64,000 bases of DNA from Eledone cirrhosa (lineage: Eukaryota): the NCBI GenBank assembly GCA_964016885.1, contig OZ024765.1, forward strand, positions 22,816,001 to 22,880,000, written 5' to 3'. Made by a program: the position numbers and the translations under genes. The notes below the pieces were generated by a model. The model was not told where the DNA came from and did not search any database. It saw only the letters and a list, made by a program, of their open reading frames with translations. Below, one piece after another: positions 45,889-46,142 of the stretch. Position 1 is the first letter of the stretch. Every line of letters begins with the position of its first letter.

Positions 45889-45957
45889 ATTTTATTATGC
45901 GCATTTCAAAAACAAACATCATCATGCAATAATATTTGTGTTTTCATCAGATAAAAC
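45889..45957 (-). ncRNA. Minimal type I hammerhead ribozyme
   Basis: gttttat CTGATGA aaacacaaatattattgcatgatgatgtttgttttt GAAA tgcgca TA ataaaat. Confidence 0.87.
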
Positions 45958-46073
45958 AGGAGAACATGATATGAAGGCTAAAAAACACTTGTGGATAGTG
46001 CAGTTGATTTAAATATGTTGATTTAAAACTGCACTATCCACAAGTTTTTTTAGCCTTCATATCATGTCTTCCT

Positions 46074-46142
46074 GTTTTATCTGATGAAAACACAAATATT
46101 ATTGCATGATGATGTTTGTTTTTGAAATGCGCATAATAAAAT
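46074..46142 (+). ncRNA. Minimal type I hammerhead ribozyme, identical mirror copy
   Basis: CTGATGA at 46081-46087, GAAA at 46124-46127, palindrome ATGCGCAT, 7-bp stem I. Confidence 0.87.

What the first reader, a model, noticed from the sequence alone, without database searches (positions are those of the whole stretch)
45889..46142. Best-formed hammerhead pair, about 235 nt upstream of the host exon's splice acceptor
Seen: intact core, 7-bp stem I, about 15-bp stem II with several G-U pairs, and the perfect palindrome AUGCGCAU. The 69-nt motif is identical in both arms while the flanking arm sequence has several differences. The minus-strand copy is sense to the gene and would be intronic. 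Inference: it could cut the pre-mRNA unless the foldback sequesters it.
Basis: partly seen in the sequence, partly recalled or inferred. Interest (0 to 1): 0.75.

Follow-up and report, generated by a model that had tools for sequence, protein, structure and literature searches.

The report
Penelope retrotransposon stub with muted hammerheads
This hammerhead pair is a short head-to-head stub of a very abundant Penelope-type jumping gene lying in a host gene's intron, where the hairpin is predicted to keep it from cutting; what is of interest is that such stubs nearly all begin at one point and likely record how these elements make inverted copies.

Summary
In detail: two type I hammerheads face outward in a 421-nt foldback, the minus copy 242 nt upstream of a used splice acceptor, inside a 14.5-kb 5'-UTR intron. 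It is not a host regulatory ribozyme. It is the terminal repeat (pLTR) of a young Penelope-like retrotransposon with Hydra-clade motifs; the ribozyme's 3' half has 14,085 exact copies in this genome. The layout (inverted copy, tail on one arm, (TA)n target, hammerheads on opposite strands) is published. In the host pre-mRNA the antisense arm is made first, and folding predicts complete sequestration (-256 versus -11 kcal/mol). The identical motif is chance: arm differences are not depleted in the ribozyme. The family data add something I did not find in print: both arms of short foldbacks usually begin at one position (about half of all copies start there), one arm has the 88-nt tail in 14 of 14 unbiased cases, and both arms share subfamily marks. 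This fits two primings at two fixed RNA sites, each running off the RNA's 5' end. The scan noted a similar inverted Penelope end in another genome.

The parts
45760..46181 (.). Whole insertion: head-to-head pair of pLTR fragments of a Penelope-like element
45760..46005 (-). Long (tailed) arm, element positions about +15 to +258; sense to the host gene
45760..45845 (-). Tail, about 88 nt, present on this arm only; in full elements it leads on to the ORF
46013..46181 (+). Short arm, element positions +1 to about +170; antisense to the host gene; right end ambiguous within the TA run (46175-46181)
45888..45958 (-). Type I hammerhead, minus copy (core 45950-45944, palindrome 45904-45897, predicted cut 45896|45895)
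46073..46143 (+). Type I hammerhead, plus copy (core 46081-46087, palindrome 46127-46134, predicted cut 46135|46136)
46004..46013 (+). Centre junction; a 10-nt direct duplicate of element positions +6 to +15
   Evidence: sequence
46013..46030 (+). Element position +1: pile-up of 5' ends across the family, probable RNA 5' end
45740..45761 (.). (TA)n target, left
46178..46199 (.). (TA)n target, right
44766..45653 (-). Host coding exon, 295 aa, unknown function, 55% identical to an Octopus bimaculoides protein that starts at the same Met
45654..60161 (-). Host 5'-UTR intron holding the insertion (14,508 nt from donor at 60162; 14,978 nt from the alternative donor at 60632)

Best explanation
It is a head-to-head stub of the terminal repeat of an abundant Penelope-like retrotransposon with Hydra-clade motifs, inserted in a TA run inside a host intron, and its hammerheads are predicted to be inert there because the 165-bp hairpin forms first. 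Shown: family membership, parent ORF, one-sided tail, TA target, fixed 5' start, intronic position. Inferred: the ribozyme works for the parent element, probably as a dimer through the AUGCGCAU palindrome, and is only a passenger in this copy. Inferred (about 55% on its own): the stub was made in one insertion event in which the element's enzyme nicked both strands of the TA run, primed reverse transcription at two fixed sites of an uncut sense RNA (+170 and +258), ran both copies off the RNA's 5' end at +1, and joined the two ends through the self-complementary ATAT there or by short microhomology.
For: 14,085 exact copies of the ribozyme's 3' 33-mer, control 0. [quoted passage not shown] Among the first 100 listed copies, 27 of 31 close neighbour pairs are head-to-head and 0 tail-to-tail; 14 lie within 400 nt, 9 at 226-255 nt, the window at 243. 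All 14 of those 14 have one tailed arm, and 18 of 28 arms start at +1 to +3. Genome-wide counts fall 12%, 56% and 18% over three successive 3-nt steps across +1 (16,239; 14,353; 6,344; 5,225). 697 loci have the perfect ATAT centre. Arms of one insertion disagree at 20 of 482 subfamily sites against 181 expected for random arms. In 10 long foldbacks each has one tail, and the untailed arm is the longer in 7, which a snap-back copy of the tailed cDNA cannot give. Hairpin -255.9 versus lone hammerhead -11.3 kcal/mol; stem I probability effectively 0, also in growing transcripts. All 8 recurrent variants in the ribozyme stems keep pairing, 27 of 29 rare ones break it: selection in source elements, decay in copies.
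Against: No cleavage, RNA-end or cap data: no run on record as RNA was listed and contigs cannot show ends. The GIY-YIG match is under the curated cutoff and Pfam finds no RT family. Clade assignment rests on motifs, not a tree. +1 has an initiator-like context but no TATA at -30. The excess of G before +1 (2,557 of 5,377 non-C cases) is confounded: in most of 30 inspected cases the G can come from microhomology or from the partner arm. Arm concordance could also come from gene conversion or assembly smoothing, and centre asymmetry from later deletion. The window's own arms differ at three sites that are polymorphic in the family. Folding is equilibrium prediction and ignores proteins and editing.
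Confidence: 0.88

Rival explanations
1. The minus-strand hammerhead cuts the host pre-mRNA and regulates the gene.
For: It is sense, intronic and 242 nt from the acceptor; the core is intact; a second sense hammerhead of another family lies in the same intron at 53317; helicases or A-to-I editing could loosen the hairpin (general knowledge, untested).
Against: The antisense arm precedes it and pairs with 92-97% of the sense arm at every length up to the end of the paired region; dimer-type stem III; metazoan PLE hammerheads cut poorly alone (PMC4209133, parts 1-2 of 4 read) and one needed its protein (PMC11167929, parts 1-2 of 4 read); no sign of selection on the motif in inserted copies; spliced products exist.
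Confidence: 0.04
2. Same element, but the second arm arose by self-priming or snap-back copying of the first (Arkhipova et al. 2013 proposed self-priming on an antisense template), not by a second priming at the target.
For: Arms share subfamily marks; palindromic centres are common; the +1 end is self-complementary.
Against: Either arm can be the longer: the untailed arm carries up to several kb absent from the tailed arm in 7 of 10 long foldbacks, the reverse in 3; both outer ends abut TA directly at two fixed sites. Later centre deletions could blur this.
Confidence: 0.3
3. The short foldback is a non-autonomous element that multiplies as a unit (MITE-like or retrozyme-like).
For: Narrow size mode; 697 loci share an identical centre.
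Against: Most centres inspected differ from each other; short foldbacks carry the same several subfamily marks as long copies; the tail can be on either arm relative to the centre type; no tandem arrays or target-site duplication typical of DNA transposons seen.
Confidence: 0.1
4. +1 is a reverse-transcription stop or RNA processing site, not the transcription start.
For: No TATA at -30; a C/T-rich tract lies about 55 nt upstream; cap signal ambiguous.
Against: 44% of copies read through +1 without trouble, as expected for the downstream repeat; the stop is sharp to a few bases; initiator-like TCA(+1)TAT context; the hammerhead site is 124 nt away.
Confidence: 0.3

Closest known systems
Hydra clade of C-terminal-endonuclease Penelope-like elements (Craig et al. 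2021, PMC8557442; section 11, passages and supplement part 2 read), including Hydra-1_Obim of Octopus bimaculoides and Penelope-13_HM with an inverted 5' copy and hammerheads on both strands
   Same: DKT, CxCx5C linker, CxxC before E and CxH after N, no CCHH inside the nuclease core, (TA)n target, canonical type I hammerhead, inverted truncated copy, tail at one end.
   Different: RWT instead of RWK; unit about 3.7 kb with an Asn-rich linker (reported members mostly under 3 kb); hammerhead sequence unlike the listed Hydra-1_Obim one, with a long A-U-closed stem II; tail about 88 nt against 30-40; over ten thousand young copies.
[quoted passage not shown]
   Same: Type I motif with palindromic helix III expected to act as a dimer; they report pairs 100-700 bp apart on opposite strands and attribute scattered motifs to truncated PLEs.
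   Different: No G10.1-C11.1 pair here; they did not analyse how the opposite-strand pairs form or that they self-sequester.
Anolis Poseidon element PAc in vitro (Frangieh et al. 2024, PMC11167929; parts 1-2 of 4 read)
   Same: Two internal reverse-transcription starts bounding the tail, both target strands cut and extended, AT-rich target, uncut RNA as template.
   Different: In the parts read they do not link this to head-to-head palindromes or to run-off at the RNA 5' end; different clade; starts about 88 nt apart here and upstream of the ORF.
Inverted pLTR palindromes of Adineta vaga Penelope elements (Arkhipova et al. 2013, PMC3846280; passages read)
   Same: Head-to-head inverted pLTRs, palindromic junctions, optional tail on one, initiator-like sequence in the pLTR.
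   Different: Explained there by self-priming on an antisense template; the arm-length data here favour two primings on sense RNA.
Non-LTR retrozymes (bioRxiv 10.64898/2026.07.22.740005; part 1 of 5 and passages read)
   Same: Short PLE-derived, protein-free repeats with type I hammerheads, often intronic.
   Different: Retrozymes are head-to-tail tandems able to give circles; this is a head-to-head pair.

Membership tests
Type I hammerhead ribozyme | CUGANGA and GAAA core, NUH site, stems I and II | tested here: met
   core 98-100% conserved in 183 arms (anchor-selected); 8 of 8 recurrent stem variants keep pairing, all one-sided changes
Type I hammerhead ribozyme | G10.1-C11.1 pair closing stem II | tested here: not met
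   A-U closes stem II
Type I hammerhead ribozyme | Match to an Rfam hammerhead model | tested here: not met
   none at gathering score or E<=5
Type I hammerhead ribozyme | Self-cleavage | not testable with these tools
   predicted only: dimer fold -32.7 near the -33.7 optimum; sequestered in the foldback
Endonuclease-bearing Penelope-like element | Single ORF with telomerase-like RT | tested here: met
   809 aa, YRDD invariant in 44 sequences; top four fold matches are telomerases; no Pfam RT hit
Endonuclease-bearing Penelope-like element | C-terminal GIY-YIG endonuclease | tested here: inconclusive
   LIY...YFG motif; Pfam GIY-YIG E=0.0023, 18.6 bits against cutoff 22.6
Endonuclease-bearing Penelope-like element | pLTR with hammerhead on both sides of the ORF, tandem and inverted copies | tested here: met
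Endonuclease-bearing Penelope-like element | Optional tail at one end | tested here: met
   14 of 14 unbiased short pairs, 10 of 10 long ones; longer than the 30-40 nt published
Hydra clade | DKT; CxCx5C linker; CxxC and CxH around E and N; no CCHH | tested here: met
   SDKT 131, CNCRIKNKC 668, CNLC..E 768, N..CLH 787 against section 11 of PMC8557442
Hydra clade | RWK motif | tested here: inconclusive
   LRWT at 45
Hydra clade | (TA)n insertion | tested here: met
Hydra clade | Placement in the clade by RT phylogeny | not tested
   no named reference proteins were in hand
Non-LTR retrozyme | Head-to-tail tandem units each with a hammerhead | tested here: not met
   head-to-head pair
Host intronic regulatory ribozyme | Able to fold in the pre-mRNA and conserved by selection at the locus | tested here: not met
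   folding prediction; no depletion of arm differences; the orthologous locus in other species was not available

The most novel reading that the evidence does not exclude
Penelope-like elements build their head-to-head inversions by twin priming: each strand of the nicked TA target primes at its own fixed RNA site (+170 or +258), and when both primings fall in the upstream repeat the two copies run off the capped 5' end and anneal through its ATAT, leaving thousands of 420-nt palindromes that mark the element's transcription start. The geometry always puts the antisense arm first in any read-through transcript, so these ribozymes are born silenced and seed long double-stranded RNA in host introns.
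Probability: 0.45. Interest if true: 0.6.

Novelty: new member of a known kind. Interest (0 to 1): 0.3.

Why it matters
The locus itself is ordinary: a passenger ribozyme in a transposon stub. The family matters more. How Penelope-like elements form their inverted structures and one-sided tails is named as open in PMC8557442 and PMC3846280. This young family gives thousands of natural products with two exact 3' starts and one exact 5' stop, intact 809-aa ORFs, and clear predictions for an existing in vitro assay. It also explains why a genome can carry many intronic hammerheads of this family without evident harm.

Tried and rejected
Rfam: no hammerhead model matches; the microRNA hits only reflect the hairpin. 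Idea that the motif is under selection in inserted copies: a raw depletion of arm differences (34/3296 against 81/3794) vanished after removing the anchor, ends and homopolymer and splitting by base (G/C 2.2 against 2.6%, A/T 1.0 against 1.1%). Idea that one arm always loses a G in the T run: an effect of my query choice. First guess of Neptune or Nematis clade: dropped, motifs fit Hydra. Exact search for the loose-end string failed because it is a mix of two exons. No RNA holder was listed; that run X4 is RNA is my inference from its two splice joints. A second laying of reads over the whole intron was not obtained, so the joints rest on one printed loose end. Cap-derived G before +1: suggestive only (by eye about 7 of 30 have no templated source). 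Homodimer prediction for the element's protein was not run, so no verdict. Pfam gives no family for the host protein. Literature searches that found no paper on twin priming or 5' run-off for Penelope palindromes: (listings only, apart from PMC3846280); none describing this family and passages of PMC13282606. Subscription papers and Repbase were not searchable; only parts of the PMC8557442 supplement were read, and bioRxiv supplements were closed.

Full report
Observation. The window holds a foldback at 45843-46190 with a type I hammerhead on each arm, both reading outward. The arms are identical over 84 nt and differ by four substitutions and one indel elsewhere. Rfam has no hammerhead match. 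The insertion is larger than the finding: 45760-46181, with about 88 extra nt on the left arm and (TA)n on both sides.

It is a repeat. The arm matches 40 of 40 scored candidates (57 found) at 88-100%, and a 33-mer from the ribozyme's 3' half occurs 14,085 times exactly, control 0. Copies that extend further lead into an endonuclease-like ORF; 150 of 150 scored matches to that domain are 99-100% identical. In the 16 long loci fetched the arm ends the element about 1 kb after the ORF, and in several the arm plus tail also stands just before the ORF: a pseudo-LTR. The ORF is 809 aa. Its model (44-sequence alignment, pLDDT 85) finds telomerase RTs as the top four matches; Pfam gives GIY-YIG at E=0.0023, under its cutoff, and no RT family. 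Motifs DKT, CxCx5C, CxxC-E, N-CxH and the lack of CCHH match the Hydra clade as defined in section 11 of PMC8557442, except RWT for RWK. That paper's supplement lists an octopus Hydra family with a different hammerhead, and a Hydra element with an inverted 5' copy and hammerheads on both strands. No tree was built.

The layout is published. PMC8557442 (passages) describes the inverted truncated copy, the one-sided tail and (TA)n targets; PMC4209133 reports hammerhead pairs 100-700 bp apart on opposite strands, a dimer architecture and low activity; PMC11167929 shows two internal starts of reverse transcription bounding the tail, cutting and extension of both target strands, uncut RNA as template and a ribozyme that needed the protein.

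Host gene. The exon 45653-44766 encodes 295 aa, single copy, 55% identical to an Octopus bimaculoides protein with the same start. In one search, runs X1-X3 read through the acceptor as genomic DNA, while two contigs of X4 stop at 45655. Their merged loose end equals the letter-by-letter mix of the sequences at two GT donors, 60162 and 60632, at 28 of the first 28 letters. So the foldback lies in a 5'-UTR intron of 14.5 or 15.0 kb. X4 is not on record as RNA; that is my inference, from one study.

Can it cut? In the host transcript the antisense arm comes first. The hairpin folds at -255.9 kcal/mol (z -39) against -11.3 for the lone motif; stem I probability is effectively zero, and 92-97% of the sense arm is paired to the antisense arm at each growing length up to the end of the paired region. 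This holds for either strand of any head-to-head pair. Even a lone arm favours other folds (stem I about 0.03), while two motifs paired through the palindrome come within 1 kcal/mol of the optimum. Over 214 arms, 8 of 8 recurrent stem variants keep pairing and 27 of 29 rare ones break it: the fold is selected in source elements. Differences between the two arms of an insertion are not depleted in the motif once base content and my anchor are accounted for, so the identical motif here is chance.

How the stub forms. In the first 100 listed copies, 31 neighbour pairs lie within 8 kb: 27 head-to-head, 4 tandem, 0 tail-to-tail; 14 are within 400 nt and 9 of these at 226-255, like the window's 243. 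I examined all 14: each has one tailed arm (end +258) and one short arm (+167 to +175), and 18 of 28 arms begin at +1 to +3, one of which probably runs further upstream. A mixed set of 35 short pairs, partly chosen by queries that favour +1, gave 32 with one tail, 2 running on into the ORF and 1 with none. Genome-wide, exact counts drop 12% for the three bases after +1, 56% for the three before it and 18% for the next three (for one base), so about half of all copies begin at this point; read contigs show the same pile-up of joints at 46011-46017. 697 loci have a perfect centre on the self-complementary ATAT; most other centres inspected are unique. Arms agree at subfamily sites (20 of 482 discordant, 181 expected; 48 pairs). 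In 10 long foldbacks, picked because they showed two arms, all have one tail; the untailed arm is the longer in 7 and the tailed arm in 3. The simplest account is two primings at two fixed sites on uncut sense RNA from one source, each stopping on its own, at the RNA's 5' end when priming is in the upstream repeat. PMC3846280 (passages) proposed self-priming on an antisense template instead; snap-back of a tailed first strand cannot give a longer untailed arm, though later deletions could mimic it. That +1 is a capped start is inferred from the sharp step and an initiator-like context (consensus recalled); the excess of G before +1 is confounded. An estimate of about 2,000 short foldbacks is an extrapolation from 14 per 100 copies.

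Against my reading: no RNA ends or cleavage data, motif-only clade call, weak nuclease match, three family-type differences between this copy's own arms, and possible gene conversion or assembly smoothing. Notes on scrambled hammerheads in this genome concern other families.

Verdict. Real, well-formed, and ordinary as a locus: a new family of a known kind, with a ribozyme predicted to be silent in the host transcript. Interest 0.3, carried by the family-level evidence on how inverted Penelope insertions form.

Noticed in passing
window 42638-42998: Second hammerhead foldback of another family between TA-rich flanks; the minus copy passes the scan, the plus copy has a one-base change beside GAAA.
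   Followed up: no
window 53317-53270 (-): Single type I hammerhead with a 12-bp stem I and palindrome AUAUAUAU, sense to the host gene in the same intron and with no inverted partner seen; a better candidate for cutting than the finding itself.
   Followed up: no
window 39034-39064 (+) and about 38307 (+): Two more hammerhead-like cores inside repeats with inverted arms (the second by eye).
   Followed up: no
window 46253-46430 / 46570-46745: Inverted-repeat element flanked by TAA on both sides, MITE-like, high copy by read depth.
   Followed up: no
window 9952-10165, 11684-12655, 16057-16814, 37872-38417, 38579-39367: Five further foldbacks, several next to TA runs.
   Followed up: no
window 51256-58600: Three decayed LINE-like reverse transcriptase copies (RTE-like by recalled motifs) inside the host intron.
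   Followed up: no
window 44766-45653 (-): Host protein with two hydrophobic segments and a Cys-rich start; its octopus relative is auto-named a MARK-A kinase, but no kinase domain is found. Two alternative 5' exons at 60162 and 60632.
   Followed up: partly
L063:1166-4444: Tandem array of about 310-nt units just upstream of a full-length copy; not checked whether it derives from the element.
   Followed up: no
L005, L006, L024, L126: Complex insertions with internal inversions and short templated pieces, suggesting frequent template jumps.
   Followed up: no
window 24000-37800 and 40000-42600: Very long, nearly pure (TA)-type microsatellite tracts, over 13 kb.
   Followed up: no
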